Below are positions 1 through 27,801 of a stretch of 32,000 bases of DNA, piece after piece. This DNA is from a virus, in the IMG/VR virus record IMGVR_UViG_3300045988_175865, positions 1 through 32,000 of that record. One strand, 5' to 3'. The stretch's first letter is position 1; each line of letters opens with the position of its first letter. The notes under the pieces were generated by a model, which was given only the letters and a program-made list of their open reading frames with translations, did not search any database and was not told where the DNA came from. The translations under genes were made by a program, and so were the position numbers.

Positions 1-3000
1 TTAGCACCTCTCCGTTAACTATTAATAACATAGATCAAGTAGATAATAAACTAGGATTAAAATTAAATACAGAAACTGATTCTACTCCTGATTTTTACAT
101 CGGAAATAATGGACAGTATTCAAATATGTTAAGACAATTTCGAGCTAAATTAATCGAAAGTTCTATATTTAATAGATATTCTGGAGAGTTTATTAATGCT
201 AATGAAAAGAAACAAGAATTTGATATCACTTTTTTAAATGATTCTATTTTAAATTATAAAAAAACATTAGCTTCTAATATTTCAAAATATTTAGGTAATT
301 CTGAATCTATAACATTAAATTTAGAGAATCTTACAGATTTTGATAATAAAGTTTCAGAAATATTAACTAATTTTGAAACTGTGTTTAATTCAGAATTAAT
401 TGATCGTAACAGTGCTTTTAATAACGCATATGACGCATATGTAATTTTAACTCAGTTTGATAAGTTATTGCAGAGTGAGATTCCATTTATTACTATTAAT
501 CCAAAATATACAAAGACGAATTCGTCTTATGTAGATCGTTATATATATAGAGGTCCTAATGTAATACACTATACTGGCTTTAGTACTAATGAAGATACAA
601 ACGCGGAAGACCATGCTAGTGATTTATCAAAAATATTGTTAGACTACTTTCCTGAAGTAAATGCAGTTGGTTTAGAAATAGATAATACTAGTATTACTTT
701 AACAGGATTTAATTCTGTAATGACAAAACTTATTAAGACTATTCAAGAAAATGAAAATTTAATAGAATATCGTTCAGAATTAAACAAAGGAGTTAAAGCA
801 GATATGTCTGTGTTAATAGACGCATATATAAATAATATACTTTCAAACCGAATTATATCTAAAAATTATAGAACATATTTATTAGATAAATTACGAGGTA
901 TTAAGAAATTTATATATTCGCCTCAAATGTCTTCTGAAATAAAAGCTATGTTTACTCAAATGGCTTTTAAAACAGTGCCATCGCAATATACAGCATATGG
1001 CTTTGATCCACAAAAAAAGACAATTGCTAGCAGAGATTTAAAAGAACGACCAGTATCGCAGCAAGCATACGATATTAGAAGTTTAATTCAGGCATCAGGT
1101 TTTTATTGAAGATCTAATCCTGATTTATTTAAAGAAAAATTAAATCAGTACGGAATTACTATAGGTAATGATAGAATTGTTATTGAATCTATTATAGATA
1201 ATATACCTATTACATTTACTATTACTTATGAATTAAATCAAAATGGCAAAATGATATATAGATCGTTTGGAGAAATTAATGATCAATCTTTGAACAATCT
1301 GATATATAACTTTATGTCTTTTATAATTCCAGAAAATATAGCTGAAATTATTCCTCAGGTATATCCTGTTGAAAAATATACAAAAACAGAACTATTTGTT
1401 CCATTATTAGCTACGACGTTATTAGATGGAAACAATAGTGATATTTTAACTAAAGAACACGATCTTGTTAATTTAGTTCCATTTACAGAAGATATATGAA
1501 AAGTAGCTAATGTATTAAGTGTAACAAATGGTTCGGATACTATTAATATTATTAAAAATGCAGAGGGAAATAACTTGCCATTATATCAAATTATTAGTTT
1601 GGTATATAATCATAACGAAATATTTGATAGACTAATTAATCCACCTACAGAAACAATTGAACATCCAAATAATGTAGCTGCACATAATTTAATAGTACAA
1701 AATATTGAAAGCGGTTTTTTATTATCTCCTAGAATTCGATCGGATATAAACATTAATGGAAAAATTAAAAAACCTGCTAATTTAAAAGTTAGTGAAGTTG
1801 CAAGATTATCTATCATGCACGATTTTTATCAAAATCTAGTAGATAATTTAGAGGGATTAATTTATTTACAACCGACTACTTTTTCTGATAAAAATAAACA
1901 TTTTCTAATAACATATAATATAGGTAAAACCATCAATACTTCTCTAGGAGAAGTAAACATTAAAGAAATTTTAAATAACTATTTAAAAGGAGATGGAACT
2001 TTAGATCCTTTATATCATCTTTTAGGAGAAACTAGAAAAAACCAAATAAATGCATTAGTTCAGAATATATTGTTTGACTATAGTCTTGCTTTTGATACAG
2101 AATTTACATCATTAGAACAGATTGATGAATTCATTGCGAAATATAATCACAGTTTAAAAAGTATTCAATCTGCATTTAATGCTAAGGGAGTTGATTTCTT
2201 TTTAGATATACATGCATATAAAACTGCCTTAAGTAAATACCCTCGAACTAACGAAACTATTAAAAACTTTTTTAAAGTCTATAATGATCAAAATAAAACG
2301 TTAGAACGTTTAGATAGAGAAAAAAGAAAATTCCTAAAGGACTTACTTGTAAATAACTTTAATTTAAATATTAATCAGGATAGTTTTATTTCTCAAACAT
2401 TTAATAAACCTGAATTTAAATCATTAGTTAATAAAAGAAATGGAGAAATTACATTAGCTGAAGTAACTGATGAAAAAGGTAAAAGAATTAATCTCAATAA
2501 AATAGTTGATTTTGATGCTTTACTTAATCTAAAATGAAAAGTTAAACTAAATCCCATTTTAGAATCATATTTTATTACTGATACTCTATTATCAAATGAG
2601 TATAATAATATGATGATAGGAGGTGTTTATGCACATCCGAATAAAAACAAAGACGGAAAGTTAGATAGCAAAGAATATTTTGAATTTAGTGAAGCTAATC
2701 GACTAATTGCTCAATATAAACGTATGGTAATATTTGGAGCTACTTATCATCCATTTGCTCAAAATTTAGAAAATGGAGTTGCTTCAAATATTAAAATTGC
2801 TGTAATTAACGATGAAGCGGGAACAGCCTGAAATATGTTAGGAGATGAAAATACTGGATTAGATACTATGGATGGATCTGGTTTATCAAGTCCACTTGAA
2901 TCTAGAGCAGAAAATAATTCACTCTTAGATGCAAGAGTTGGGCGCGATAAAAAAACTATTATGCATGATATCGATTCTCGGTATGGTAGACCAACTTTAT

Positions 3001-5537
3001 TAAAATGGGCTGTTTTTGATATAAGTAATGAAAGAAGACGCATTTCTTATGGTTCAGATATTTCATTAGAAAATATCTTTAAAAAAATGCATAGTATTCC
3101 AATTAACAAATCTATTATTTTAGAAAATTATTATAATATATTTGATCCTATATATTTTAAAGATATTCGAACCAATAAATATTATAAAATAAATTCAATC
3201 AAAACGATTTTAGATCCGAATGGATTAATTGAAGTTGCTAGAGATCTAACTGAAGTTGAATCTAATGGATTAGAAACAAACAATACTATTCAGACAACTC
3301 ATATAATAAATACATTATACGATATTGATCAAGTATTTGGTGGATCTTGAGCAATGAAATTTAATGAAGACATAAATCGTTTAGAATATTCTGAATCTAA
3401 TATTGATATACTTGAAAATATCGTTAACAAAGAGCAATTAAAAGATAAGTTTATTGCTTATTTAGTTAATAAATCTGCAATCAAAGTTGGAGCAGGAAAT
3501 ATAAATGATTCAAGTAAATGAAGTAACTCTGATGCATTTACTACTATTGAAATGTCTACTAAGTTTGGAGGAGTTCAAATGAACGCTGATCACCATTTAG
3601 ACATGTCAGAGGTTACCGAAATGACGCAAATGATTAGTGCTTTAGAGCAAAATGGATTTACACATGAGTTAGTAACTCAGATTTATAAAGAAATTGGTCA
3701 GATTGTTAAAGAATCCATGAATGATTTGTCAGAAACAATTAAAGCTAAAGATAAAGATCAACTGTATACTATATTAGGTAGATCATTAATTAAAGCTTTT
3801 ATGAATGATGACAAAGATACTTTAGGGTTAGCACAATCATTTGTTTATTTAGCTAATGAAAGTTTTAAAAATGCAAATTTAGATTATAAACTACCATTTA
3901 GCGCAGCAACAATTAATGGAGCTTTTATTGCTACTACAACATCTAACTTAGTTAAAAGTGGAATTAGACGTAAATATTCTGGTATAGCATCTGTACTAGT
4001 TCCTTCTCATAATATGATTCAATACTATAATATTGATGGACTTAATTATCAGTATGAAGAATTATATAATTTAGTAAATACAAAAGGTATTGATCATTTA
4101 TACGATGAAAACGGAAATATTATAAAAAGTAAAGTTGAACGTGCTTTAACAGAACCTATTATTGATGGAGAAATAAATCCTTTTATAATTCCAATTGAGC
4201 CAAATGATATTGATTTCGAAGATACAATTGTAATATTTAATGAAGAAGATAATCCTACTGTTATTAAAATTGATTCCTTAGAGAAATACTATTTATATAA
4301 GCACCAAGCAACCTTAGGACAACAATATTATAACTGAACAATTAAACCTAAAAATCTAAAACAGTCAAATACATTTTTTGATGTAGTTGTAGGCTTAGAT
4401 GGATTTGGAAATGAAATAAATAAACGTTTTAGTATATATGACTTAGATGCAGTAAGAGCATCTTATTATTTAAGTTCTCGTAGAAAACAATTAAAGAACT
4501 GGGAGGATTTAACAGAGTATGAAAAAACATTACTATCATCTGCATTAGGTTTACATCCAATCGATAATATACAGTTAAACATAGATAGTCTATTATCTGA
4601 TTTACAACAAAAGATACAATTACAACTAAATAGTTTAGCTGACAATCAATCTATTATTAATAATACTGCTTTTGGTATTACTAATCCAAATGTTAGAGTT
4701 GTTAAAGTATCTAATGTTAATGTTACTCCAACTCAAATTGTAATGGGGAAAAGGCAAGCTCAACAATTTGGATTGCAAAAAGGAGACTCTATTGCTCAGA
4801 TTAGACAAGAAAAAGAAAATTTCTTTTATAATCGAATGCAAAGTAACTATAATATTGGAAATCCAGATAAATTAACATATGATATTATATTATTTGATGG
4901 AACAGGAAAACAATTCTATGTAAAAGTTTTAAGAACAGAAGAAGTTCCAAAAGCATTTACAGGTAGTATTACTCCAAATCCTGATTTTAAAATTATTGAT
5001 AATATTGTATACTATAATGAAAAAGAATTTTCAACAAATGATGAGAAACAATTTTATAAGTATACAGATACAAATGGAAATATTCATGATTTAATTATTA
5101 TAAATTCTATAGATAGATTAGGTGAATTAAGAAAATCAGGATTAATTAATACATATCAATTTAATTATACTAGCGAAAATACTAAAAAATTATTACCTTA
5201 TCAATTTCGTTATAATATAGAAAATAATATTCCTATCACTTTACATACCAGAGATAGTGAAGGAAACTTGCATGAAGCTAAAATCAATCCAACAGCAGAT
5301 ATTAGTTACGTAAGTTTAAACCAAAATGAAATATATAACTTTAATCAAAGAATAAAACAATTAGCGTTTAATCAATATGAAGCATTTGAAAAGTCTTTAC
5401 TTCATGTAGGTACTCGCATACCGTCACAATCAATGCAGTCATTTGCTCCTATGGAGATTGTAATGTTTACAGATAGTGAAGTAAATGATGTTTATGTAGC
5501 TAAAGTAGTTACGTGAATGGAAGGCTCCGATTACGAT
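1..5537 (+). CDS. Giant virion-type protein, exon 1 (5' end outside window). Ends in a beta-prime-like DPBB catalytic domain of a single-chain crAss/YonO/QDE-1-type RNA polymerase.
   Basis: One frame (codon starts divisible by 3) is open from nt 3 to 5537 if the in-frame TGAs at 1107, 1497, 2535, 2829, 3348, 3519, 4335 and 5514 are sense; there is no in-frame TAA/TAG. Seven ORF-track pieces (126, 1251, 1575, 2610, 2835, 3552, 4743) share this frame. RIPSQSMQSFAPMEIV...VVTWMEGSDYD (5415-5537) resembles RNAP beta-prime RAPTLH..QAFEPVLI...NADFDGD. Confidence 0.75.
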
Positions 5538-6465
5538 AAACTTATCATGTCGTATTAAAACTCTTTTAATTGCTGGAAACTCTGACCGCGTTATGGCGAA
5601 GACAATCAGCAGCCAAGCCATATAAAAATGGAAGGTTCAACGACTAATATTAATAACTTAATAATTCGACTTTAATAGTATGAAACAGTTAAAAACACAT
5701 TTAAATAAAATAGGAAGAAATTTAATAATTGCTATGTCTATAGGGGATGGGCATATAGCTAAAAAAGGATATTTAGATATAAATCATTGTGAAGCTCAGA
5801 AAGAGTATTGTTTATGAAAATGGCAACTTTTAAAAGATAATGGAGTTAAAGTTGGCACGTTTAGAGAATGAAAACAAATAAATGGATATTCTAAAGGTAA
5901 AGAAGTAACTAAATATGGATTTCAAACAACAGTACTTGATTTTTGTAAAGTACTTAGACGAGTTGAATATGAGTACGGAAAAACTAAATATAATAAAAAG
6001 TTACTTAAGCGACTTGGAGCTCAAGGGTTAGCAATATGAATAATGGATGATGGAGCATTACTTCGTAGATCTAAAACAAATAAAGATGGAATACGAACAT
6101 ATTCAGGATTTTATATTACAATATCTACGTATTGTCCATTAGAGCAAGCTAATGATATTATAGAATATTTTAATGAAGAATGAGATATTTATCCGACTAA
6201 GGTTTTTGATAAAAGGCAGCAATCCTATATAATTAATTTTTGTGCCAGAGAAGGTAGAAAATTAATAGAAATTATAAAACCTTATATGTGTCCCCACATG
6301 ATGTATAAGGTTCTTCCTGATAAAATAGAATGTGAAAACTACATGAAGTTATTAAAAGAAACAGCTGAAACTGCTGTTGAAGGTACACTAGAAATAGTGG
6401 AAATGGAGAGCGCGAAAGCGAAGATATAGTCTGATCTATATAGAAATATATAGTTAACACAATTG
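5538..6465 (+). mobile_element. Group I self-splicing intron 1 (928 nt) with an internal LAGLIDADG endonuclease ORF
   Basis: P1: exon UACGAU (5532-5537) pairs with intron GUCGUA (5549-5554), with U.G at the splice site. Core elements are AAUCAGCAGCC (about 5605-5615), GGUUCAACGACUA (5634-5646) and AAGAUAUAGUCUGA (6421-6434). A GAAA-capped hairpin CUAUAUA/UAUAUAG follows, and the intron ends AACACAAUUG with a terminal G at 6465. The host reading frame shifts across the insert, and splicing restores it. Confidence 0.85.
5680..6429 (+). CDS. LAGLIDADG homing endonuclease (double-motif), encoded in intron 1
   Basis: ATG at 5680, TAG at 6427. Motifs are LIIAMSIGDGHI and GLAI-W-IMDDGAL. There are four in-frame TGAs (5815, 5869, 6037, 6180), one at the conserved Trp of the second motif. 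The 3' end overlaps the intron P7 core. Confidence 0.88.
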
Positions 6466-7077
6466 ATAGATAAACAATATATCCTTGGCTATTCATTATC
6501 ATCTAATGGTCGTATTCATACTGATGAAAACTCAGCACCTTATTTACGAGCTGATGCATTAAGAAATAGAGTTGTAGATGGTGTATTTAGTATTATTCTT
6601 AATCCTAGAAACCAAATTAACTTAACAATGCCAGTAACTACTGATCGAATGCAAAGTCTTGCTAAAAGATCTAAAATGGGTGAAGCTGCTAAATATATGA
6701 GTCCTTACAATCCAGCAAGTAAGTACTTAATGCAGATTCAAAATATGGTTGGTAAAGCAGTTATTGGTAATGTTGCTACGGCATTAAAAAGTTTCTTTGC
6801 CTTAAGCAACGTATATAATACCAAGTTTAGAGAGATTAATGAAGCAATTCAAACTGGTAATTTTGATATAGCTAGAACGATGTTAAAAAGATATACATTT
6901 ATCCATAATGATAGACTAATAACATTAGCTAATGTTAATATGGAAGTATTTGAGAGTCTACCTGAAAATACTCCTGAAGATATTAGACAAACTCTAGCTC
7001 AAGTAATTAGTTATGAGGATGCCTTAGATGATCAATCTATGGTACTTGGAGAACTTTTAAATAGTGCTACTGATTTT
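6466..7077 (+). CDS. Giant RNAP-like protein, exon 2
   Basis: Starts IDKQY..., completing GSDYD|ID. This is the ORF-track 6463 frame, open to about 7077; beyond that the translation becomes a hydrophobic run (FFIRKLLNNLPILIFIIIFAL*) typical of intron read-through. The 3' boundary is uncertain by a few nt. Confidence 0.65.
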
Positions 7078-8372
7078 TTCATCAGAAAATTATTGAATAA
7101 CTTGCCTATATTAATTTTTATTATTATCTTTGCACTATAGATAAAAATAATTTAAAACAAATTAATATGGCAAAGAAATTAACAAATGAAGAAGTTGAAA
7201 AACTTCATAAAATGTATTTAGAAGGAATGACTTGTGAAGAAATTGGAAAACTTACAGGTCATAAAACAGAAACAGTATCTAAATATCTAAAAGAGAATTA
7301 TGATATAAAGCCTCAAAGAAAAATTGATTTAGTAATTTTATCAAAACTAGCAAAAGAGGGAAAAACAACTAAAGAAATGGCAGAATATTTTAATGTACAT
7401 CCTTCTGCTATATGCTATTGAAAAAAGTATTTTAATGAAGGAGATCTAAAGATTTCGCACCCTTTTTTGCAAGAAGATCATCAATTATCTCATCTACAAG
7501 AACAAATGATTCTTGGCAGTTTATTAGGAGATATGAACATAGGAAAACCTAGAAAACATCATCCTACTTGTAGATTATCCTTAGTACACTCAATTAAACA
7601 AAAAGAATTATTTATGAAGAAAGTAGAAATTCTTGGAGAATTTATGAGTAATTATAGAGAATATAGTTATTTAGATAATAGAACAAATAAAATATATTCT
7701 ACTATAAGAGGAAATAGTAAATCTCATAAAGTATTTAATGATATGTATAATAAACTATATATTAATGATATTAAAACAATTACTAAAGAATATTTAGATA
7801 TGATTAATCATCCAATAGCATTAGCTTACTGATTTATGGATGATGGAACGAATTCTGGACAAATAGCTACAAATTGTTTTTCTTTTGAAGAGGTTAAATT
7901 ACTATCGAATTGACTAGAAAACAAATTTGGTATTATTACAACAATGCACAAAAATTTAAGAAATTATACTTTATATATAGTTGCTAGCTCTAGATTTGAA
8001 TTTGATAATTTAATTTCTCCTTATATTATTCCTTCTATGAAATACAAATTAAAATTTTCTGAAATAGCAGAGTCAGTTAACTCCGTGAAAACGGGAAAGC
8101 CCTTAGAGATTTAAATACTAAACTATTATAGTAATATGATAGTGGCTAAGCTAATCACTTAGATATAGTAATAAGTTTAAATATTGGGTAATCCGTTACT
8201 AAGCTTCCTAATAGGAAGAAAGTTCAACGACTATCGAAATGCAGAAATGACAGAGTAGAGTAGAACTTAAGTAAGTTCGAAGTGCGGAGATCCTGTATAG
8301 GATAAGATATAGTCTGAACTCATAGGAAACTATGAGAGAACTTATGGAAACGATAAGTTCGTAACAAAATTG
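7078..8372 (+). mobile_element. Group I self-splicing intron 2 (about 1.3 kb) with a 5'-located HTH-LAGLIDADG ORF
   Basis: The structured 3' core (8115-8372) contains GGGUAAUCCGUUAC (about 8186-8199), AGUUCAACGACUA (8221-8233) and AAGAUAUAGUCUGAAC (8304-8319), then a GAAA-capped hairpin CUCAUAG/CUAUGAG. The end AACAAAAUUG (G at 8372) is nearly identical to the ends of introns 1 and 3. The 5' splice site is provisional (7074-7078): the U-run 7074-7079 can pair with GAAAAU at 7085-7090. Confidence 0.75.
7167..8114 (+). CDS. Homing endonuclease: two N-terminal HTH modules plus a LAGLIDADG domain, encoded in intron 2
   Basis: ORF-track 7167 and 7467 pieces are in the same frame and are joined by TGA at 7419. 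Further TGAs lie at 7830 (ALAY-W-FMDDGTN) and 7911. TAA at 8112. Motifs are LGSLLGDMNIG and WFMDDG. Confidence 0.85.
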
Positions 8373-10637
8373 AATGCAAAGGAATTAATCCTTAAAAAAA
8401 TTAATGCAGATACAAACTGGGTAGATATTTATACTATTTCTCTTATGTTAGGTGAATCACTAGATGAAATTGGTAATTTAATGATTGATGATGATATAAC
8501 AGAACTAGTAAATGATTTTACTACTAGTATGTTTAGTGATGAACAGAACTATGATAAAGTTCGTTATGTTGCTGATAAAGCATATACCTCTGAAGGAGAG
8601 AAAAAAGAGAAATATCTACAATTGCTGGATAAAGTTATATCTGCGGATGAAGTACGTATCTTAGGAAAGATACTTAAAATTAATCAAGGTCTTCCTACAA
8701 ACACTTCTGATTTATATAGTTATATTAAATCTATTGAAAAATATATAGAAAGTAGGTTTAATAGACAAATACTAGAAAAACAAGAAGAATATTTAAGAAT
8801 TGAAAAGGAGTTAGAAAAAACTTGATTAACTCCTGAAAAGAAGGAAATATTAAAAGAGGAACGAAGATTACAAAAAATATATCCAGAATTAGAAGAAGGG
8901 TCTTCATTATATAATTTCTATAATAAATACAATTTAATATATGAAGATATAAATGGTAATATTAGACATGGAGATTTAGAAGCCAAACTTGGTAAACCTA
9001 AAGAAGCTATAAAGGCTAGACAAGATTACTTTAAGTCTAGAAAAGAAATGGCTAATATCTGGCAATCTTTTGACTTAGTTAGATTTATTACCGATCCAAT
9101 CTACAAACAGGAAAGTATTGAAAAATATGAACAAAATAAGGTTAATTTTAATATTTTGGAAGTAATCAGTGCAGTTCCTCATTTTAGAGAAATGTTTAAT
9201 GTTCTTGCAATTAACAAAAGTGTTCTTAATAGTTTATCATCTAGAAATAGGTTAGAAGATATAATTCTAAACCAACTTAGTAGGAACTTTGCTGGAGTTC
9301 GTATGGATGTAAGCAAACCACTAAATAAACTTGAAATTAGAACTATAAAAGATCAGATAGATAAGTATCTTATTAGATCTTGGATTATTAGTAAAGGAAT
9401 TGAAATAAATGTTCCCGCTAGTCCTAAGAATCCAGCTCCTTATATATTAAGATTGGATAATGAAAATAATATTAACAAGTTTAGAAGTTATGTTGAAAAC
9501 TACGCTATTCCTTTATTAAAGGATAAGTTGAAAAATAATAAGTTTGTTCAGCTATTAACTTTTGGACTAAGACAAGGAGTTCCATTCTATAAGCTACCAC
9601 TTAACATGGTTCAAGTTGATAACACTCAGAAGACTAGGGCTTTATACGAAGAAGCATTATATGCTTTTAATAACCTTAATAAGGTCAAAATAACTGGTAT
9701 AGATATGAACTTAGTGGATATGTTTTATCTATATAACTTAGTTGTTAATCAAGATAAATTTGGTCCTAATTCTATGACTAGGATATTTGAAGACTTAGTA
9801 TCATCTGGTAATGAAGATCTTCTTATATATGATTTTAATAATTGAATTGATAGTCAAAATATTGAAGACTTAGTTAACAGATTTAGAACAGAAGAAAATA
9901 GTATTAGGTTTAATTTAGTAGAATCAACTCCTATTGTAGATGACACAAATTCTGATATTGGATTTAAAGAAACTCCTTTAGAAGAGGATATTGAAGAGGC
10001 TCAATATGAAGAATTAGCAGATAATCCTGTTAAAGAAAATAATGAAGTAGCTGAATATTATCAAACTAACCCTTCAACTAAATCAAAACTTATAACAATA
10101 ATTAAAGAATCTAATTTAAAAGGACTTCACATAGTTACAGATTCTGATTTAGTTAATGAAGATTCTACTACTAGAAATGCTAGGGGATTTGTGAAGAATG
10201 GTGAAATCTATATTAATGTAGATAGAGCCGAAGATGATACAGTAGTCCATGAATTTAGCCATTTATATTTAGCAGATGCTAAAGTAAATAGTCCTAATGA
10301 ATACTATTCAGTACTAAGTAGAGTTAGAAATACAGGTACTTGGAAATATATGAGAGAGATACCTGAATATCAAAATAAAAGAGGATCTGATTTTGATGAA
10401 GAGGTTCTAGCAACTTTAATTGAGCGAGCATATAATGAGGGATTAGGAGGAGCAGATTATGATGTTGCAATAGATGCTCTGAATCTTACATCTCCAGAAT
10501 TTAAATCATTTATAAAATCTGATATTCTACCATCATTAGGAGAGACATTAATAGAGAATTATAAGGTATCTCAAAAGATAGCTACACTTAAAAATAAGCT
10601 CATCAAAGATAATATTATTAAAGAGGATTGTAAATAA
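8373..10637 (+). CDS. Giant RNAP-like protein, exon 3, with a C-terminal zincin-like HExxH module
   Basis: ORF-track pieces 8370, 9048 and 10191 share one frame and are joined by TGAs at 8823 and 9843. HEFSH lies at 10248-10262 in the context GFVKNGEIYINVDRAEDDTVVHEFSHLYL. TAA at 10635-10637. Confidence 0.7.
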
Positions 10638-13600
10638 TGGAATGTACATATGAAACTACAATAAACGGTAAGAAGATAAAGTTCAGCTCCGAAATGGAGC
10701 TGGACAACTTCTTATCAAGTAAATTAGCAGATTATCAAATAAACGAATCAGATTTAACTTTTCAAATTAATCCTATAGATAGTACTATAGAGAAGGTAAA
10801 TGCTATTACAAGTAAAGTTAAAAATGCTTCTATAGAATCTGTAATTATAAATGATGATGGAGATTCAGAAACTATACTTAAGATTCCTGACTCAATAGGT
10901 ACTACTAGATTTATTACATCTAATGGGGATCCTTCTAATATGCAAAAGGAATTAGTTCCTCCTTTTAACTTAAATGATTTCTTAAAAAAAGAAAGAGAAA
11001 GATTAAGTGCAGAAGGAATGACTAAATCTCAAATTGATTCATATTTAGAAAAGTTACAAAAGTCTTGAACTCAGTTAACTGATTATGGTACTGAAATACA
11101 TTCCTTATTTGAAAGTATTATTAATAATACTACATTCAAACCAACTAATTTGAGTGAAGAACAGGTATTACGTTTAACTGAAGAATTTAAATCCTTTATT
11201 GAAGATATTAAATCTAAATATGGTAAAAATGCTAAAATCTTAACAGAAGTTCCTATAATATCAGATAAAATTCATGAAGCATATCAATCAGAAGGAATTA
11301 AAAGTATTAATGGTAGAATTGATATGCTAGTTATTGACCAGAGAGGATTTGCTCATATTTATGATTTTAAAGTTTCTAGAAAAGAAGTAGGAATATGAGA
11401 GGATACTAGAAACATACAAGGATCAACTACATGGCACTCTACTAAAAAACGTTCTGTGGGGTATCAGTTAGGAATATATAAGAATATTCTAGCACAATAT
11501 GGCATTACTGTAGGAGAAACAAACGTTGTTCCTATTAAAATAGATCCAGAATATAATGAAGATGGAACTATTAATAAGCTAAATGATGCTTATATTGATT
11601 TTACTAAAATAAAAGTAAATCCTAATGCTCCATATACAGAAACTATAAATACTATTCTTCCAGTAAAAACATTACTTGATGATATTGATCTTATAAACTC
11701 AATTCAGGAACCAATGACTAAATTTGTTCCTAATTATGCAGTAGAAACTCAGGTACAGAGAAATACAGTTACTGTGGATAAATACATTAATAATCCTAGA
11801 ATTGTACACTATATTGATGACACTGACCCAGAACGAAAGTTTGGAAAATACTGAATTTGGAATAAATATAAGAAGAATCGTAAAGTATATGCTAAAACAG
11901 AGGAGGAACTCAGAGAAAAAGTACAAGAATTAGTAAATGAAGAAAATAAACATATTCACTCTGAAATGTCTACCTTAGCGGATACCATTCAACAAATTAT
12001 TGAAGGATATGAATCCATTGATGACTTAGCTGCTGATAACCCATTTAAGTCTGATTATTGTAAAAAGATATTTAGAAAATATTTAGTAAAAAAGAGTGAA
12101 ACTGACTATGGATGAACTTTTCAAAATAATCCTAAATTTATAGCTGCAGGTATATTTGTATTTACTAAGGATGGTAAAATGGAAATAATATCTGTTACTC
12201 ATAATGATATTCATTCAGTTGTTAATTTAGGTCTTGGCAAATCTATTCAAGGAGCAACTAAAAAGGATAGTGATATTGATAGTCATGTAATAATGCAAGC
12301 ATCTAACGGTAATATTGACCTTGTTAAAGTTATGTGTTTATTAAATAATATGCCTGAGGTACTTAAAGGATACAAAGTTAATAAAATAGAATCACATAAT
12401 ATTTGAATTCAAAAAGGTACTGAGACCTATTTAGAAACTCTTTTAGATAATTTTTCTGAATTATGCAGGATACATGGTATTACCAATAATCTTACATCTC
12501 AAAATTTTGCAACAACATTAGAAGCAGCTGTAAATATAATAAGAGATACTGCTGGTGAAGAATTACTATCTCACATGGGTAATTGAGAATTTAATTTTAG
12601 TCCTAATGATATTGTAAATGGAGTTCCATTCATCTTGCAGAAAATGGAACAACTAAGAAAATTAAAATCTGCAGATGGCCTTCGTACTGCTTTAAGAGAA
12701 GGCAAATGAAATTTTGATGATCCTATTCAGCTAGCATATATGTTATTAGGCAGAGCACTAAATAAACTTAACGGATACTCTATTTATATTGAACAAGATC
12801 CTAAATTGTGAGTAAATTTTTCTAGGGAAGGATGATACACTGGTTCATATGTGAATAGTGCTAGTAACTCTTCTTCTAAAAATATTCAAACATTAAGTAA
12901 AATATTTTCAGTAGCAGAAGCTCATATTAGAAGGAAAGAATTATCATACAAACCTAGGATTAGTAAAGTAGTTAAGGCTTTATATGAATACAATCACAGA
13001 AATAGACTTATTGGAGGTGAGGTTAAGTTTTTTGATAACTTATTTGTTAAGGATACAAACGGTAATATAGATAAATCATTTAGACTAAAAAATCCTTCAG
13101 ATAGTAGTTTGGCTAAGGAAGAATCTGACTTTATTAAGATGTTTCTAGAGATAGTAAATGATTTTAGATTTGATGGTAATCAAAGTAAAATAGCTAAAGC
13201 CATTGAAGACGGTTCTTACTATGAAGTTCCTGTTTCTATGGGAAGTACATCTACTCAAATCCACAATAAAGGATATAAACAAGCCTTTACATCTAAATAT
13301 AATGAAGCTTTAAACTTTCTAAAACTTCTTCCTGAACAAGAGCAACAATTTAGGGAATCAAAAGGAGAGCCAAAGGTATATAATAAATATAGATTAAATG
13401 GACTTAGTAGATCTGATTTAATTGAAAATTATGGGATAGATGGTCTAGAAACTCAACTTGAAGATTTGCTATTAAATGTCATCCATACATACACAATGGA
13501 AGAAGTAATGAATGAATATCTTCCCAGACTTCAAGGTATTAAGATTGCCTTACAATATCAAACTGGGATGTTTGGAGTAGTTACTGATCATGTTTTAGAA

Positions 13601-15037
13601 TATATAGATAAATTTATTGATGCTAACGTTTATAGTAAGCCTATTATGGCTAAAGAATTGCAAGGTGCATATAAGATGTTATCTGTAGTTAAATCAATAA
13701 CAACAGCTACCGCTCTCGGTTTAAATCTTAGATCAGGTATTCGAGAAATGATGCAGGGAATGTGAATACATCTAAGTAGAACTATGGCAGAAGCTTATGG
13801 AAAGGATCAGTTTACTAAAAAAGATGTTGCTAAAGCATGGGCTATTATATTTAAACAAAGTGTTAAAGATATTAATACTTTAACATTAATTGATGCCTTA
13901 AATGTGGATTATGGAATGGCTAACGCCGATCCCCATCAAGTCCAAGAGAGACTAAGTTCATCTAAAGCAGGTATTAAAAATTTAGATTCTGATTCACTAT
14001 ACTTCTTTAATAGAGTACCTGACTCGTATCATAGAATGGGATTATTAATTGCTAAGATGTTGCATGACGGATGTTATGAAGCTCATAGTATTGTCAATGA
14101 CCAACTTATCTATGATTTCAAAAAGGATAAAAGATTTAGTTTATTGTCTGATTCTAAAGCTGATAAGAATTCTATAGAGTATAAAAAGCAACATGCTTTA
14201 TATACTGCTATGAGAGAACAGTTTAATAGAGAAGGATGAAATATCCAAGATGGAGATGATTTACCACGGGCTTATACTATTCAAGAAGGAACTAGTATTA
14301 AATCGTTTGCGGAATTATGCTTTGGGCACTATGATAAAAGTACGCAAATGCTTATGAAACAAATGTTTCTAGGTGCTATGATTCTACAATTCAGAACATT
14401 CCTATCAGCTAAGTTTGAACAGTGGATATTAAAGCCAGATACTTATAATCAAGGTCAATACACTGAAAAATTTGATGAAAATGGAGTAAGATATATTCGT
14501 ATATTTACATTTGATGAAAAAGGAATTCCATCTGTTAGAATCGGTCTTGAAACAGAATTAAAACCTGATGATATTTGGGAACCTTACATTGAATGGCAAG
14601 GCAGATTTATGGAGGGAATTGCATATTCAATAATTAGTTTTGGAAAAACATTATACAAGTTAGATTTTAATGGTTTTAAAGAACTATGAAAAAATCCAAC
14701 TAAAAGAGCTAATTTCTATTTATTCTTACATGATATGATCTGAATGTCTATACTTATGTGAATTGTTAAAGCTCTATTTTTATCTGAAGAAGAAGATCTT
14801 GGACCTGTGGGTCATTTAGTAGGTACTTCATTATATACATCTTTTTCTGACGGGCCAATTACTAATATTATGGCTTCAATGTTTGGAGATTTAAATCCAC
14901 CTATGCATAGCATAGTTGTGAACTTATATAGACAAACTTCTGGAATAATTACAGGAGATGTTAATTTATTTGATGCTAGTGTCAATTCATTTGGAGCATT
15001 AAATAGTTTAAAATATATTGGTGATCAGTTAGAATAA
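10637..15037 (+). CDS. Giant protein 2 (about 1466 aa) with an N-proximal PD-(D/E)xK (RecB/Cas4-like) nuclease domain and hydrophobic C-terminal segments; probably a virion or ejected protein
   Basis: ATG overlaps the upstream TAA (TAATG at 10635-10639). Eight ORF-track pieces (10637 to 14807) share one frame and are joined by about 14 in-frame TGAs, ending at TAA 15035. Nuclease motifs are GTEIH (11087), GRIDML (11312), IYDFKVS (11357) and QLGIY (11465). Confidence 0.7.
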
Positions 15038-18798: not shown

Positions 18799-20215
18799 CA
18801 ATTTTGTTATCTCTAGAGCTTTTTATCTCTAGATTCTATATCTTCATATTCGATATAGTTCAGCATATCTTTTCACCTCTAAAAATAGTAAGGTGGAGCA
18901 CACTCGTGGGAAAATTATATTCTGTACAACAGGTTCATTTCCTATGCGTTGCACTGTAGCAAATCATTTAAATCTGCTATTAGCTCAGGATTAGCATCTC
19001 AGCCTTCCCTGAATTTGCGCTCTAATAATTTTAAAGATTTCTCTTTAAAACGGCAATCTTTGATTTTATTAAATATTTGATATTTTCTATCTAAATAAAT
19101 TGTTGATTTATAATATAGGTGATATAAGTAGGCAGTTGCCTTTATTCCCGAAAAACTAAATGCAAAAGTAAAATCGCTATGATTATTAGAAAACAAATGT
19201 CTAGGCTCTAAGTAGCTTACCATTTTACTTAAAAATTCTTTTGCACCTAAACAGCTTATTTCTGGTTTATCATATAATCCTAATGACCCATCACCATCAA
19301 AATATCCTCTAATAAAATGTCTTATTAAATCTTTAGACTTAAAGATATTTTCATTAGGAAATTTTAAAGTCAGTGACTTTTTAGGAGTACATCCGTAAGA
19401 ATTTAATGTTTCTCATAAGTGTTTATTTGTTAGAGCAAATCTACATCTAAAATATTGCTTATTGTTACATATAATAGATGATATTTTTACTCTATTACCT
19501 GTTACTTGAAAAAACTTCTGTAATTTATATAAATGTTCCACATCAGATCCTTTTAAAGAAACTTCAAAATTATAATGAGGTTTTCCATTTTTAGGAATTG
19601 AAGCAATATATCCATCAGCAAAAATAAAACCCAATCAATAAGCTTTTTCTTCGGTATCTATAATATCAAAAATGTGTTCATTAAATTTTAGCATATTTTG
19701 AGTATTAATAACTGGTATTCCAAGTTTCTTTAATCTAATAGAAAAATTGCTTCGACTAAATTTATATTTATTACTTATTTGTGTTAGGCTATAACCATTA
19801 CTATACATCTGCACTGCCTCTTCAAAGTAAGTATCTAAATTACTCTTTCGTATATTAATGTTATTATTATGAAGAATAGTGGAAATAGTATTTCTGGATA
19901 CATTATATAGTTTAGCTATATCACTACAAGTTTTACCCAAATTATATAGTTTACAAATATTAATTTTTTCAGATAATATTAATTTACTACACTCTCTACA
20001 AAGAGAATTTCTATTAGCTACACGACTAACTGTAGTAGGATGTACTTTACAAATTTTACTTATATCTTTAATCTTATAACCTTGATTATATAAATCAATA
20101 ATCTTATTTTCTAAATCATTACTAATTTTTTGCATAATATTTAAATTTTAAATAAATTAAATCTATGCAAAAGTAATAATATAAAACAATTTAATCAAAT
20201 ATTTTATAATAAATT
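18799..20215 (-). mobile_element. Group I self-splicing intron 3 (about 1.4 kb) with an HTH-LAGLIDADG ORF, splitting the ATPase Walker A motif
   Basis: On the minus strand: AAUCCUGAGC (18983-18992), CAACGCAUAG (18942-18951), AAGAUAUAGAAUC (18832-18844), hairpin UCUAGAG/CUCUAGA (18812-18833), and the end AACAAAAUUG with terminal G at 18799. Exon 1 ends ...PGIG (GGU). Exact splice sites are good to a few nt; the P1 pairing is weak. Confidence 0.75.
18942..20135 (-). CDS. Homing endonuclease: three N-terminal HTH repeats plus a double LAGLIDADG domain, encoded in intron 3
   Basis: ORF-track pieces 19635..20135, 19413..19634 and 18999..19223 are in one frame and are joined by TGAs at 19635, 19413 and 18999. 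Motifs are AY-W-LGFIFADGYI and FIRGYFDGDGSL. TAG at 18942. Confidence 0.85.
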
Positions 20216-24746: not shown

Positions 24747-25204
24747 TATGTATTCATTTTATAAAACATTTGTATCTTTTCTTTCAAATCATATAGTATT
24801 GCTTTTTCCTGAACAGTATTTACAAATAGTTCGTACATATTATACTTTTCATCATTATATATTAACAACATATCATTAATACTTACATCAATATAATTAC
24901 CTCCTATATAATATCGTAATTTAAAATTAATATATGAATTATTACATTCATACTTAATATCTGTATAACATTCTGAAGCAATATTTAATAAATTATTAAT
25001 AAAGTTCTTTGTATAAGATACAACCATTCTATTTGTAATTGGAATCCTACTCTTTGTTCGGTCTTCAATATTTCTAATAACATCATTTACAACACTATCC
25101 CTTGCTATTATTGTAGCTTGATCTGATTCAATTTTACAAGTTCGAGATTGAAGATTAGAAACAAACAGTTGAATTTCTTTTAAAGTTAAATTTTCATCAT
25201 TCAT
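24746..25204 (-). CDS. Hypothetical protein
   Basis: 152-aa ORF joined to the DNA polymerase stop by a TAATG junction. Confidence 0.5.
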   Translation of the reverse strand: MNDENLTLKEIQLFVSNLQSRTCKIESDQATIIARDSVVNDVIRNIEDRTKSRIPITNRMVVSYTKNFINNLLNIASECYTDIKYECNNSYINFKLRYYIGGNYIDVSINDMLLIYNDEKYNMYELFVNTVQEKAILYDLKEKIQMFYKMNT

Positions 25205-26129
25205 TAAAATAATTTTAATTGTTTATGCTTAAACATACATACGATTTTTTGTGCTGCAGCTATATAAAAAGAATAATTAATATTAGATGGTAATTCATCA
25301 GATTTATTAATAGTATTCAAAATTGTTACGCCAGAGTCAGTTAATAGTTTAATATAGTTATATCGTCTACCATTAGAATCTATTTTACATTTATATAGCC
25401 ATGGACCATCAGTAGATATATAATATCGGTTAATACGTTGAATTAACTGACCATCATATTCTACAGAATAATCTTTACTAACTTTTTGATAAGTTATAAA
25501 CTTATTAATATCCTTACAAGCATAAATAGTATCTGCAACAGGAATTCCATCTGCTAAACATTTATTAATAGCTTCGGGAATAATAACTGCATCCATACCT
25601 TTGCCAAGTTTTACCTTGTCGATAAACATACCTTTTGTCTTTAAAAGACTTGGATCTTTTGTTTCAGAATAACCTTCCTTAATTGCAAGATAGTCATTAA
25701 TAGCAAACTGATACATTGCTTCAAATCTATCCTCTTCAAGAGTAAGTTTAGTTAAGATTTCCCAATTCTTGCAAATTTCTTGTACATTGGTATATTTGTT
25801 TCGTTTTAATAGTACAAATAATCCATCAGTATTAGCTTGAATTATTCTACAACCTGCTTGAACTAATTTCTCCGCTAACATTAATAACATCAATTGTCCA
25901 TTAATTCTAATTTGCATAACAGCATATGGAGAATAACAAAAATTATGTTCATTTTGTAGATTACCAGACAAACCGTTTAAAGCAAGTTTTAGAGTTTCAT
26001 TCTTAACTTTATTTCCATTATGTTTAGCTTCTAATCGTTCATCTCGAATTTGAGAGTAAACTTCAAGGAATTCTTTACCAAGATGTTTTGGATAAAATCC
26101 ATATTGTATAATAATGCTAGGATATAGTG
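25204..26129 (-). CDS. Family B DNA polymerase, exon 2 (palm/thumb)
   Basis: Starts (S)LYPSIIIQYGFYP. It contains the motif B-like KLALNGLSGNL and the motif C-like IQANTDGLFV. TAA at 25204. Confidence 0.85.
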
Positions 26130-26514
26130 CATATCCATTTTAATTTTCGACTATATCTTAATTTTTATATCTAATTTGTTCTGAATTTAATTCAATGTAG
26201 TGTCATTTAAAGCCTTTATATGAAGCTTTTGTACCTTGACAACAACAATAAATGGATATAACCAAATTAAATTTATAAAAATTCGCGGCGTTTCGAATAA
26301 AACCTTATAAAGTTTTATCCTACTCTCTTTCGAGATAGTCTGTGAACCTTGATCCTATAAGGATCCTTGGCTGCGGATTATAATACTTATTAAGTTTTTA
26401 CTTTCTCATAAGCGTTATCTTATGTGCTACACTATGTATTACTACTAGCTGCAGTATTAATAAGTTAAATTAAGTTCCCGCAATTAACCGCGTTTTACTT
26501 GCGCCACTATATTA
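26130..26514 (-). mobile_element. ORF-less group I self-splicing intron 4 (385 nt) in DNA polymerase motif A
   Basis: On the minus strand: P1 is exon UUGCGU with intron GCGCAA (U.G at the splice site). P10 is intron AUAGUG with 3' exon CACUAU. Core elements are AAUCCGCAGCC (26369-26379), GGUUCACAGACUA (about 26335-26349) and AAGAUAUAGUCG (about 26148-26160), with terminal G at 26130. Removal gives exactly 650 codons. Confidence 0.9.
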
Positions 26515-27538
26515 ACGCAACATCTATATCAATAAGCATTTCATCTTTTGTAGGTATAATTTCCTCAGGTTTATTAACACTATGAATACCTCCAACTCCA
26601 ACAGTATATTCTAATTCATCAAATATAAAATGTTTCTCATATCCTTTACGTCCAGGAGAAACTGTTTGCTTTTTCATATCAGCTAATACACTTTTAAGTA
26701 TAGGTGATTCAAACTCAATAAAAGGTAAAATAACCTCATTTAATGGAATTAAATCGCAAGGTGACCTCAAATCTTTAATTTGATTTCAGGTTTGTCCTGT
26801 TTTTTCAAGATACTTTTGAGTAATAATTTTCATTCCAATATTAACTCCATCTTTATTAAGTACCTTTACTCCATACTCATCTTCAATAGCTATACGTAAA
26901 TCAATATCCTTTTTACATCTATTTAATAATTCCTCAGTAGAATCAACATCATTAATATTATATTCTATCATTTTAGGAATTTCAGATACAGGAAGATAAT
27001 CTTGGAAATCGCCTTCATATTCTTGAACATTTCGAAACTGCATAGTTACTTGCATCTCCTTTAACCCTACTCTCAACTTTTGAGAATAAAGCATAGTTAA
27101 CAAGTCTAATGTTTCAAAATAAATTTTATATTTCCACTTTGTTCAAGAACTAAAATTAGTATCAGTAGATTGAATTATTAAATTACTAAGTTTAAATAAA
27201 GATGCGCATATCTCTGAATACGACATCTTTAACATTACTTTATGAAAATCAATAATATAATTAATAATAGGATTATCATAATGAATATTATTGTATCCAC
27301 AAAATATTTTATCTGTTTTAAACTGTAAGTTTGTAGTATAGTTTCTTTCTCAAATACCAATTTGAGATTGATTTCTAACAGTTCAAAATAAATCTACTAA
27401 CTCTTGTAAATTATTCTTACGTTCAGATATTTCAAAAAATAAGCGTTCTCCTGTTTCTGTATTTTTTACAACACAGTGAAACACATTAGGAAATATTTCA
27501 ATATCATAAACGTATACAGTTTTATTTCTAATTAACAT
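26515..27538 (-). CDS. Family B DNA polymerase, exon 1 (3'-5' exonuclease domain and start of palm)
   Basis: ATG at 27538. Exo I is YVYDIEIF and Exo II-like is GYNNIHYDNPII. At least four in-frame TGAs. It ends ...IDIDVA + t, and splicing restores DIDVASLYPS. Confidence 0.85.
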
Positions 27539-27801
27539 TATACCTCATCATATGTAATTCTAAATATTTCAGGTTTGCAAGGATAAAATTCATTCCTAAC
27601 TCCTCTGATAATATAATCTCCAACTGAAGCTTTCATTATACCTTCAAGAGTTGGAATTCCAAGCGAATAATCATTTTCTTCTTGTGTATTGTTATAACGC
27701 AAAAGTTGATTTCCGACAAACTCTTCAACTTCTTCAACATTATTTCCAATATACTGAATAGCCTCTATTTCTACAGGTTTTTTTCTATATTTCTTTATCA
27801 T
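27538..27801 (-). CDS. Hypothetical small protein
   Basis: 87-aa ORF (KKPVEIEAIQY...GDYII...FYPCKPEIF) joined to the polymerase by a TAATG junction. Confidence 0.55.
   Translation of the reverse strand: MIKKYRKKPVEIEAIQYIGNNVEEVEEFVGNQLLRYNNTQEENDYSLGIPTLEGIMKASVGDYIIRGVRNEFYPCKPEIFRITYDEV

What the first reader, a model, noticed from the sequence alone, without database searches (positions are those of the whole stretch)
5409..6480. RNAP catalytic DxDxD motif exists only after splicing: the intron sits inside the metal-binding loop
Exon 1 ends ...RIPSQSMQSFAPMEIVMFTDSEVNDVYVAKVVTWMEGSDYD and exon 2 begins IDKQY. The joined sequence GSDYDID matches the NADFDGD/DYDGD metal-chelating loop of double-psi beta-barrel RNA polymerases. 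The upstream RxPxx...FxP strand matches beta-prime RAPTLH..QAFEP. The giant gene is therefore a single-chain RNAP of the kind packaged in crAss-like virions. Its catalytic triad is split between two exons 928 nt apart, so polymerase activity depends on RNA splicing.
Basis: partly seen in the sequence, partly recalled or inferred. Interest (0 to 1): 0.8.

Follow-up and report, generated by a model that had tools for sequence, protein, structure and literature searches.

The report
Intron splits crAss-like polymerase active site
A mobile self-splicing (group I) intron sits inside the three-aspartate catalytic motif of the giant RNA polymerase gene of a crAss-like gut phage, which gives an ordinary explanation for a gene disruption that the literature had left unexplained.

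Summary
Read with TGA as Trp, exon 1 ends ...EGSDYD at 5537 and exon 2 starts IDKQY at 6466. The 928 nt between them are a group I intron carrying a LAGLIDADG homing endonuclease gene (5680-6429).

Evidence for the intron: a U.G wobble at the 5' splice site in a P1 helix whose guide sequence co-varies with the exon codons; a terminal G; two collinear Rfam RF00028 hits; 15 of 52 core pairs with compensatory changes; uninterrupted relatives that read GSDYD[I/V]DK.

The gene is the crAss-like virion RNA polymerase. A family profile matches phi14:2 gp66 across its 1361-DFDID-1365 catalytic region (hhalign probability 96.6%). Structure prediction, Pfam and comparison with E. coli beta-prime gave nothing.

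The same 15 nt are interrupted at three different positions, by ribozymes with two kinds of core, in many relatives. One of these, cr116_1, uses the standard code and belongs to another family. A second endonuclease-bearing group I intron (7075-8372) lies in the same gene, and an ORF-less one lies in the DNA polymerase gene.

Splicing itself is inferred, not shown. This is a new member of a known kind. It resolves the "frameshift in DxDxD, unknown expression mechanism" remark made for Zeta crAss-like phages.

The parts
3..5537 (+). Exon 1 of the giant RNA polymerase gene (its 5' end lies upstream of the window). 1845 codons, 8 in-frame TGA=Trp. Ends RIPSQSMQSF...EGSDYD.
5529..5537 (+). Codons GAT TAC GAT: the first two aspartates (D-Y-D) of the catalytic DxDxD motif. 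T5537 is the last exon base.
5538..6465 (+). Group I intron 1 (928 nt), ending in the terminal G6465.
5532..5554 (+). P1 helix: exon UACGAU (5532-5537) pairs with the internal guide GUCGUA (5549-5554), with the U5537.G5549 wobble at the splice site. The loop 5538-5548 can pair with the start of exon 2 (P10).
5556..5558 (+). TAA that ends the exon-1 reading frame six codons into the intron.
5561..5646 (+). 5' half of the ribozyme core: P3 5' strand 5561-5566, P4 5571-5576/5606-5611, P5 5581-5602, P6 5612-5636, J6/7 and the P7 5' strand GACUA 5642-5646.
   Evidence: Rfam RF00028 33.3 bits at 5568-5648; covariation
5680..6429 (+). Intron ORF: LAGLIDADG homing endonuclease, 249 aa, 4 in-frame TGA=Trp. 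It lies between the P7 5' strand and the P3 3' strand (position of P7.1/P7.2), and its 3' end overlaps the core.
   Evidence: PHROG 11023 E=7e-17; Pfam PF03161 on the homologous ORFs
6386..6465 (+). 3' half of the core: hairpin 6386-6399, P3 3' strand GGAGAG 6405-6410, P8 6411-6420, J8/7 AAGAUA 6421-6426, P7 3' strand UAGUC 6427-6431, P9 6436-6453 (GAAA loop), terminal G 6465.
   Evidence: Rfam RF00028 26.4 bits at 6420-6451
6466..7074 (+). Exon 2: begins ATA GAT AAA (I-D-K, the third aspartate) and ends ...LLNSATD.
7075..8372 (+). Group I intron 2 (1298 nt). P1 is exon ACUGAU 7069-7074 paired with guide GUCAGU 8072-8077. The core lies at 8049-8336 and the terminal G is 8372.
   Evidence: RF00028 47.9 bits, E=2.4e-11; L002 is uninterrupted at SAATD|NAKEL
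7167..8114 (+). Intron 2 ORF: helix-turn-helix plus LAGLIDADG endonuclease, 315 aa, 3 in-frame TGA, lying in the P1 loop.
   Evidence: (PHROG 11023 E=9e-12)
8373..10637 (+). Exon 3, the C-terminal part of the polymerase gene (NAKELILKK... to the stop codon).

Best explanation
[quoted passage not shown] The phage is probably of the Zeta group.

Its catalytic Asp-x-Asp-x-Asp loop is encoded across a mobile group I intron of phage (IA-like) architecture. In the pre-mRNA the intron guide GUCGUA pairs with the exon end UACGAU, which places the U5537.G5549 wobble at the cleavage site. A free guanosine bound at P7 attacks after U5537. The terminal G6465 then takes its place and the exons are ligated. 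This creates GAT|ATA and the protein sequence EGSDYD-IDKQY, the same motif as the catalytic DFDID of phi14:2 gp66. A second group I intron, 1.3 kb long, must also be removed.

Without splicing, translation stops six codons into the intron. The product then lacks the third aspartate and the C-terminal third of the enzyme, including the bridge-helix region.

The intron's LAGLIDADG endonuclease presumably cuts intron-less alleles at these same highly conserved 15-20 bp in co-infecting relatives. Repair then copies the intron and nearby exon sequence into the cut allele (homing).

Shown here: the intron's anatomy, covariation, exact boundaries, intron-plus and intron-minus alleles, and homology to gp66. 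Inferred: actual splicing, endonuclease activity and target, and virion packaging.
For: Intron
- U before and G at the end of the insert.
- RF00028 matches both halves in the right order: 33.3 bits (E=1.5e-6) and 26.4 bits (E=1.8e-4).
- RNAalifold on five ORF-deleted homologous introns recovers P1, P3, P4, P5, P6, P8 and P9.
- With P7 added, 96.1% of cells are paired and 15 of 52 pairs show compensatory changes. None of 500 shuffles reaches this, and slid controls give 28-46% paired.
- A guide sequence with the G.U wobble and 6-11 contiguous pairs is present at 12 of 13 splice sites examined. It changes together with the exon codons: UACGAU/GUCGUA, UUCGAU/GUCGAA, UUGGAU/GUUCAA.

Boundaries
- The L008 match ends at 5537. 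L002 and L008 are near-identical alleles with and without the intron, and their differences cluster within about 30 nt of the site.

Polymerase
- hhalign of the family profile against gp66 gives probability 96.6%, E=5e-10, over gp66 residues 1314-1554.
- blastp of the spliced protein against gp66 gives E=7e-7 over the motif. The spliced cr116_1 protein against gp66 gives E=1e-28 across the junction.
- Each Asp of the gp66 DFDID motif is essential, and crAss-like polymerases have I or V at position 4 (bioRxiv 10.1101/2020.03.07.982082).

Endonuclease.
Against: - There are no RNA data, so splicing is inferred.
- Each Rfam half-hit is below the family's gathering score of 50, and the whole-window gathering scan found nothing.
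- Introns of the window's type end in A/TTG in frame with exon 2 (TTG 6463-6465 in the window; ATG in L002, L080, L088 and cr116_1). A separately initiated second polypeptide therefore cannot be excluded on sequence alone.
- The double-psi barrel fold was not recovered. AlphaFold models had low confidence at the motif, and Foldseek against the PDB found nothing.
- PDB sequence searches, PHROGs and Pfam gave no hit for the giant protein.
Confidence: 0.88

Rival explanations
1. Gene in pieces without splicing. The endonuclease insertion has split the polymerase gene. Exon 1 (with a KLIMSY tail) and exons 2-3 (initiated at TTG 6463) are translated separately and assemble non-covalently, as in the T-even-type phage genes split by free-standing endonucleases or the split beta/beta-prime genes of jumbo phages.
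For: - An in-frame TTG or ATG forms the last three bases of every intron of the window's type examined.
- In the GenBank record of cr116_1 the pieces are annotated as separate CDSs.
- Yutin et al. 2021 note that protein boundaries vary in Zeta transcription blocks.
Against: - The insert keeps a complete ribozyme core under selection for base pairing.
- The guide sequence tracks synonymous and codon changes in the exon.
- The second intron type, at the neighbouring position, ends in ACG and offers no start codon.
- A break with extra residues inside a three-aspartate metal-binding loop, in which each Asp is essential, is unlikely to be tolerated.
- No promoter-like or terminator-like signal sets exon 2 apart.
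Confidence: 0.05
2. Decaying or non-functional locus. The intron no longer splices and the polymerase gene is a pseudogene or an assembly chimera.
For: - The locus is a mosaic. Its left side matches the L002 lineage and its right side matches the L081 lineage.
- The window comes from an uncultured source.
Against: - 2802 codons are open across three exons with family-wide conservation.
- The same architecture recurs in at least 6 independent viral contigs (L002-L007).
- The protein cluster of the exon 1 product has 1630 member sequences.
- The catalytic core bases of the ribozyme are at consensus.
Confidence: 0.04
3. A non-canonical expression mechanism (translational bypassing, programmed frameshifting or another unknown process) bridges the gap. 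This was left open for Zeta-group polymerase genes in the literature.
For: Yutin et al. 2021 and the 2023 Crassvirales review describe frameshifts inside DxDxD and invoke unknown mechanisms.
Against: A 928 nt gap that holds a full group I ribozyme and an endonuclease gene needs no new mechanism. TGA recoding plus two canonical introns restore one continuous reading frame.
Confidence: 0.02

Closest known systems
PhiPA3 gp210 intron: group I intron with an HNH endonuclease in the virion RNA polymerase beta-subunit gene of a Pseudomonas jumbo phage (Birkholz et al., Science 2024, PMC11620839)
   Same: A homing-endonuclease-bearing group I intron inserted in a phage virion RNA polymerase gene, immediately next to conserved catalytic-site aspartates. 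The endonuclease targets the intron-less allele of a related phage.
   Different: - Different polymerase lineage: a multisubunit beta subunit there, a single-chain gp66-type enzyme here.
- Different motif: here the universal beta-prime-type DxDxD metal loop itself is split.
- Different endonuclease family: HNH there, LAGLIDADG here.
- Interference competition is demonstrated there and only conjectured here.
Classical phage group I introns: T4 td, nrdB and nrdD; SPO1/SP82 DNA polymerase; Twort; Bastillevirinae (own knowledge; PMC2988022 and PMC11878797 were listed but not read)
   Same: Ribozyme architecture resembling phage IA-type introns, with the ORF in a peripheral loop and partly overlapping the core. 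An early in-frame stop. Insertion in the most conserved codons of an essential gene. Co-conversion of flanking exon sequence. The core words AATTGCTGG...CAGCAGCCAAGC...GAAGGTTCAACGACTAA occur in at least 118 viral contigs.
   Different: The host gene and site differ. The intron ORFs use a recoded genetic code (TGA=Trp). The same 15 nt target is used at three positions by two kinds of ribozyme core.
phi14:2 gp66, the crAss-like virion RNA polymerase (Drobysheva et al.; PDB code 6VR4 recalled from memory, not checked here)
   Same: RIPxQ...GSD[FY]DIDK catalytic region and downstream elements up to the bridge helix (hhalign probability 96.6%). A giant single polypeptide within a block of giant genes.
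   Different: gp66 is uninterrupted and uses the standard code. Outside roughly 240 residues no similarity is detectable. The window protein is longer (more than 2800 aa, against 2180).
Zeta-group crAss-like RNAPB' genes described as disrupted within DxDxD (Yutin et al. 2021, PMC7886860; review PMC10136315)
   Same: The same phenomenon: large genomes, TGA recoding, many introns, and a DxDxD motif interrupted.
   Different: Those papers describe stop codons and frameshifts and suggest unknown expression mechanisms. Here the interruption is resolved into canonical group I introns with defined splice sites.

Membership tests
Group I intron (Rfam RF00028) | The 5' exon ends in U, which forms a U.G wobble with the internal guide sequence in P1. 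| tested here: met
   U5537.G5549 within UACGAU/GUCGUA. The UG pair is invariant in 5 of 5 homologues, and two P1 pairs show compensatory changes.
Group I intron (Rfam RF00028) | The intron ends in G (terminal or omega G), and exon ligation restores the reading frame. | tested here: met
   G6465. The join gives GSDYD|IDK, identical in pattern to uninterrupted relatives.
Group I intron (Rfam RF00028) | Conserved core helices P3-P9, including the P7 guanosine-binding helix and the J8/7 and J6/7 consensus. | tested here: met
   52 pairs, 96.1% paired, 15 pairs with compensatory changes, none of 500 shuffles as high. GUUCAACGACUA and AAGAUAUAGUC are at consensus.
Group I intron (Rfam RF00028) | Covariance-model score at or above the family's gathering threshold (50 bits). 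| tested here: inconclusive
   The model is split by the 750 nt ORF into hits of 33.3 and 26.4 bits. Nothing was found at the gathering setting. The neighbouring-site ORF-less intron in L085 scores 52.4 bits, and intron 2 scores 47.9 bits.
Group I intron (Rfam RF00028) | Guanosine-dependent self-splicing. | not testable with these tools
   Needs an in vitro transcript plus GTP, or RNA-seq.
crAss-like virion RNA polymerase (gp66 family, two-barrel RNAP) | A DxDxD catalytic motif with I or V at position 4, preceded by RIPxQ. | tested here: met
   DYDID after splicing. R, I, P, Q, G, S, D, D and D are invariant in the family alignment. gp66 has 1361-DFDID-1365.
crAss-like virion RNA polymerase (gp66 family, two-barrel RNAP) | Detectable homology to gp66 over the catalytic barrel and bridge-helix region. 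| tested here: met
   hhalign probability 96.6%, E=5e-10, 221 columns, gp66 1314-1554. blastp E=7e-7.
crAss-like virion RNA polymerase (gp66 family, two-barrel RNAP) | Two double-psi beta-barrel domains in one chain. | tested here: inconclusive
   AlphaFold2 models of the homologue P0003 had pLDDT below 50 (first model) or around 50, with short stretches below 50 (second model), at the motif. Foldseek against the PDB found no hit with E<=0.001. BFVD returned only uncharacterised relatives, some labelled crAss-like.
crAss-like virion RNA polymerase (gp66 family, two-barrel RNAP) | Packaged in the virion and transcribes early genes. | not testable with these tools
   Needs virion proteomics or biochemistry.
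Cellular RNAP beta-prime (Pfam RNA_pol_Rpb1_2) | Sequence or profile similarity to the NADFDGD barrel. | tested here: not met
   Pfam gave no RNAP family even at E<=10. hhalign against E. coli RpoC 331-830 gave probability 0.3%.
LAGLIDADG homing endonuclease | Two LAGLIDADG motifs and a family profile match. | tested here: met
   IAMSIGDGHI and LAIWIMDDGAL. PHROG 11023 E=7e-17. PF03161 on the orthologous ORFs.
Intein | An in-frame insertion translated together with the host protein. | tested here: not met
   A TAA stop lies six codons into the insert. The ORF and exon 2 are in a different frame from exon 1.

The most novel reading that the evidence does not exclude
The 15 nt that encode DxDxD are a contested homing hotspot across Crassvirales. 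At least three insertion points are in use (after D1, after Y/F, after D2), occupied by two kinds of group I core, in lineages that use different genetic codes. The introns may do more than parasitise the gene. Their endonucleases could act as interference weapons that cut the catalytic site of the polymerase gene of co-infecting intron-less crAss-like phages, as in PhiPA3 against PhiKZ. The shared intron sequence could serve as a portable crossover point that swaps C-terminal polymerase modules between divergent phages; the window itself is such a recombinant.
Probability: 0.35. Interest if true: 0.65.

Novelty: new member of a known kind. Interest (0 to 1): 0.45.

Why it matters
Two papers on crAss-like phages state that Zeta-group polymerase genes are broken by "frameshifts" inside the DxDxD motif and suggest unknown expression mechanisms. 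This locus shows that TGA recoding plus canonical group I splicing is enough, which allows correct annotation of the hallmark polymerase gene in a very abundant group of gut phages. Their relatives are all labelled "hypothetical" or "uncharacterized" in public records.

The locus also gives precise, testable splice junctions. It documents an unusually dense intron hotspot in a catalytic loop. And it points to endonuclease-mediated competition and modular recombination among gut crAss-like phages.

Tried and rejected
- Rfam at the gathering threshold on the whole window and on 8 loci found nothing. An E-value scan of 5300-8500 also found nothing. The hits appeared only when short stretches were searched.
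- For the giant protein, a PDB sequence search with the single protein and with a family profile, PHROGs and Pfam all gave no hit.
Foldseek against the PDB gave no significant match.
- hhalign against E. coli beta-prime gave no match.
- No tRNA, and therefore no suppressor tRNA, is present in the window.
- There is no close relative among deposited phage genomes.
- My first guess for the 3' end of intron 2 (8347, giving ...ATD-L-NDKF) was wrong. Comparison with uninterrupted L002 and P0003 moved it to 8372 (ATD|NAKEL).
- My first guess for P1 of intron 2 (the local hairpin CUGAU/AUCAG, without a wobble pair) was replaced by the guide at 8072-8077.
- My first guess for P3 of intron 1 (UUAAU/AUUAA) was replaced by CUCUUU/GGAGAG, which shows covariation.
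- An intein was considered and rejected because of the stop codon and the frame change.
Full report
OBSERVATION

The window has 27.8% G+C. It makes sense only when TGA is read as Trp. With table 4 the + strand fragments merge into ORFs of 1852, 775 and 1468 codons. The 10 in-frame TGA codons of the gene mostly align with W, F or Y in homologues.

In that reading, exon 1 ends ...RIPSQSMQSFAPMEIVMFTDSEVNDVYVAKVVTWMEGSDYD at T5537. The frame continues KLIMSY and stops at TAA 5556-5558. A new frame starts at 6466 with IDKQYILGYS. The 928 nt in between (5538-6465) hold a 249-codon ORF (5680-6429) with the two motifs IAMSIGDGHI and LAIWIMDDGAL. This ORF matches the LAGLIDADG homing-endonuclease family PHROG 11023 (E=7e-17).

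IS THE JOIN REAL?

A search with the spliced protein returned 48 protein clusters.
- Thirty carry an uninterrupted G[SA]DxDxD at this place, typically EGSDYDIDKLYI.
- Seventeen are ORFs that end inside the motif (GS|, GSD|, GSDY|, GSDYD|).
- In an alignment of 12 members, R615, I616, P617, Q619, G651, S652, D653, D655 and D657 are invariant.

Among 69 related viral contigs with the anchor motif, 59 are uninterrupted and 10 are interrupted.

The decisive comparison is at the DNA level. L008 is 98.5% identical to window 3001-5537, the match stops exactly at 5537, and L008 reads GATTATGAT|GTAGATAAA (D-Y-D-V-D-K) without an insert. L002 carries the same intron as the window, and L002 and L008 are 98-99% identical in both exons. 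They are therefore intron-plus and intron-minus alleles. Their differences cluster within about 30 nt of the insertion site, which is the signature of co-conversion during homing.

WHAT THE INSERT IS

It has the full anatomy of a group I intron.
- The exon end UACGAU (5532-5537) pairs with GUCGUA (5549-5554), and the obligatory U.G wobble falls at the splice site. The intron ends in G6465.
- Rfam RF00028 matches both halves in the correct order when the stretch 5515-6490 is searched: 5568-5648 (33.3 bits, E=1.5e-6, model positions 57-150, P4-P6 to the P7 5' strand) and 6420-6451 (26.4 bits, E=1.8e-4, model positions 220-251, J8/7, P7 3' strand and P9). The endonuclease ORF fills the gap. Each piece is below the gathering score of 50, and whole-window scans missed them.
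- I aligned ORF-deleted versions of the five homologous introns that sit at this same site: the window, L002, cr116_1, L080 and L081. RNAalifold recovered P1, P3 (CUCUUU 5561-5566 with GGAGAG 6405-6410), P4, P5, P6, P8 and P9.
- With P7 (GACUA 5642-5646 with UAGUC 6427-6431) added as a pseudoknot, 96.1% of cells are paired and 15 of 52 pairs carry compensatory changes. None of 500 shuffles reaches either value, and slid controls give 28-46% paired.
- The ORF lies between the P7 5' strand and the P3 3' strand. From my own knowledge this is where IA-type phage introns carry P7.1/P7.2. The 3' end of the ORF overlaps the core.
- The guide sequence changes together with the exon codons: UACGAU/GUCGUA (window), UUCGAU/GUCGAA (cr116_1), UUGGAU/GUUCAA (L081), ACUACGAU/GUUGUAGU (L083). 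That is hard to explain unless P1 forms.
- No + strand terminator-like site and no excess of promoter-like sites sets exon 2 apart.

WHAT THE GENE IS

No library names this protein: PDB sequences, PHROGs and Pfam all gave nothing. The link is to phi14:2 gp66, annotated as the catalytic RNA polymerase subunit.
- gp66 reads ...GYRIPNQGQSS...GSDFDIDKMYVM with 1361-DFDID-1365.
- blastp of the spliced window protein against gp66 aligns 1797-1852 with 1314-1370 (38.6% identity, E=7e-7).
- hhalign of the family profile against gp66 701-1700 gives probability 96.6%, E=5e-10, over 221 columns. These correspond to gp66 1314-1554, which runs from the catalytic barrel to the bridge helix at 1529-1559 (domain limits from bioRxiv 10.1101/2020.03.07.982082).
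- That paper shows that each Asp of DFDID is essential, and that crAss-like polymerases have I or V at the fourth position, as the window does (DYDID).

The fold itself could not be confirmed. Two AlphaFold2 models of the 45%-identical uninterrupted homologue P0003 were of low confidence at the motif, and Foldseek against the PDB found nothing. BFVD returned only uncharacterised proteins, some from organisms labelled "CrAss-like virus sp." or "gcode 4".

Context fits a large crAss-like genome:
- related contigs reach 160-190 kb;
- a further 1468-codon ORF follows the gene;
- a replication block lies on the other strand, with DNA polymerase, ThyX, an ATPase and a Dda-like helicase.

A HOTSPOT, NOT A SINGLE EVENT

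The same 15 nt are interrupted in other lineages at three different phosphodiester bonds.
1. After D2 (GSDYD|IDK), by the window's intron type. This is seen in the window, L002-L007, L080, L081/L082 and L083. It is also seen in cr116_1, a standard-code member of Steigviridae, the family that contains phi14:2. Its pieces are annotated as three hypothetical proteins, and its spliced product matches gp66 at E=1e-28 across the junction.
2. After Y or F (GSDY|DIDK), by a different ribozyme type with a longer P1 (AGUGACUAU/GUAGUCACU). This is seen in L084, L085, L086 and L055-L058. The ORF-less copy in L085 scores 52.4 bits on RF00028, above the gathering score.
3. After D1 (GSD|YDIDK), in L088, with a core like the window's.

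The window locus is itself a recombinant. Its exon 1 and 5' intron core are 99.6-100% identical to the L002 lineage. Its intron 3' end is 100% identical to the L081 lineage. Its exon 2 is 75% identical to L081 and cannot be aligned with L002. The crossover therefore lies inside the endonuclease ORF.

THE REST OF THE GENE

A second group I intron occupies 7075-8372.
- Uninterrupted L002 and P0003 read ...SAATD|NAKEL, which fixes the exon ends at T7074 and A8373. The intron ends in G8372.
- P1 joins ACUGAU (7069-7074) to GUCAGU (8072-8077) across a loop of about 1 kb. That loop holds an HTH-LAGLIDADG ORF (7167-8114).
- The core scores 47.9 bits on RF00028 (E=2.4e-11).
- ORF-less copies exist in L006 and L008.

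With both introns removed, the window encodes 2802 uninterrupted codons.

MECHANISM AND RIVALS

The best explanation (confidence 0.88) is ordinary guanosine-initiated self-splicing that recreates the metal-binding loop, plus homing driven by the intron endonuclease.

The main rival is a gene in pieces, translated as two polypeptides. It has one point in its favour: introns of the window's type end in an in-frame ATG or TTG. Against it stand the selection for ribozyme pairing, the guide sequence that tracks the exon, the neighbouring intron type that ends in ACG, and the implausibility of a broken three-aspartate loop.

A pseudogene, an assembly artefact or an unknown recoding mechanism is unnecessary, given the open frames and the recurrence in independent contigs.

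COMPARISON WITH WHAT IS KNOWN, AND NOVELTY

Endonuclease-bearing group I introns in the most conserved codons of essential phage genes are classical. One in a virion polymerase gene next to conserved aspartates has been studied in PhiPA3 (PMC11620839).

Yutin et al. 2021 (PMC7886860) noted that Zeta-group RNAPB' ORFs are disrupted by stop codons and frameshifts within DxDxD. Their transcription-block figure legend lists LAGLIDADG as an intron-encoded endonuclease. They nevertheless suggested additional unknown expression mechanisms, and the 2023 review repeats this (PMC10136315). I found no paper that resolves the DxDxD interruption into defined group I introns.

The finding is therefore a new member of a known kind. 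Its specific value is as the explanation of a published puzzle and as a three-position, two-ribozyme hotspot. Interest: 0.45.

Noticed in passing
window 7075-8372 (ORF 7167-8114): A second group I intron in the same polymerase gene, with an HTH-LAGLIDADG endonuclease ORF inside a P1 loop of about 1 kb. The junction ...LLNSATD|NAKELILKK matches uninterrupted relatives. RF00028 scores 47.9 bits. ORF-less copies exist in L006 and L008.
   Followed up: yes
window 26135-26523, minus strand: The DNA polymerase gene is split into 27559..26507 and 26139..25204 (PHROG 1252 positions 50-357 and 359-654). The gap of about 370 nt matches RF00028 (37.8 bits, E=3.6e-8) and holds GTTCACAGACTA and AAGATATAGTC. 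It is a third group I intron, without an ORF.
   Followed up: partly
window 5680-6429 and 7167-8114: Both intron endonuclease ORFs contain in-frame TGA codons (4 and 3). They therefore depend on the phage's TGA=Trp recoding. The homologous ORF in standard-code cr116_1 is annotated as an intact standard-code CDS.
   Followed up: partly
window 4538-6765 compared with L002, L081 and L008: The locus is a mosaic. Exon 1 and the 5' intron core are 99.6-100% identical to L002. The intron 3' end is 100% identical to L081. Exon 2 is 75% identical to L081 and cannot be aligned with L002. The crossover lies inside the intron ORF, so the intron may serve as a recombination junction between divergent polymerase halves.
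   Followed up: partly
window 18942-20147, minus strand: Another endonuclease ORF with HTH domains (PHROG 4645, E=2e-53), lying between an ATPase gene and a gene hitting PHROG 1314. I did not determine whether it is free-standing or intron-borne.
   Followed up: no
L001 (cr116_1, MT774389) 8010-8882: A reference Crassvirales genome deposited in GenBank carries an unannotated group I intron at the same DxDxD position. Its polymerase gene is annotated as three separate hypothetical proteins.
   Followed up: yes
window 10634-15037: The 1468-codon ORF after the polymerase gene overlaps its stop codon and has 14 in-frame TGA codons. Its only hit is a PD-(D/E)XK-like exonuclease family at residues 113-319 (PHROG 298, E=6e-8). 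It is probably another protein of the transcription block.
   Followed up: no
whole window: No tRNA gene, and therefore no suppressor tRNA-Trp(UCA), lies within these 32 kb although TGA is recoded. No close relative exists among 50,697 deposited phage genomes, yet the cluster of the exon 1 product has 1630 member sequences.
   Followed up: no
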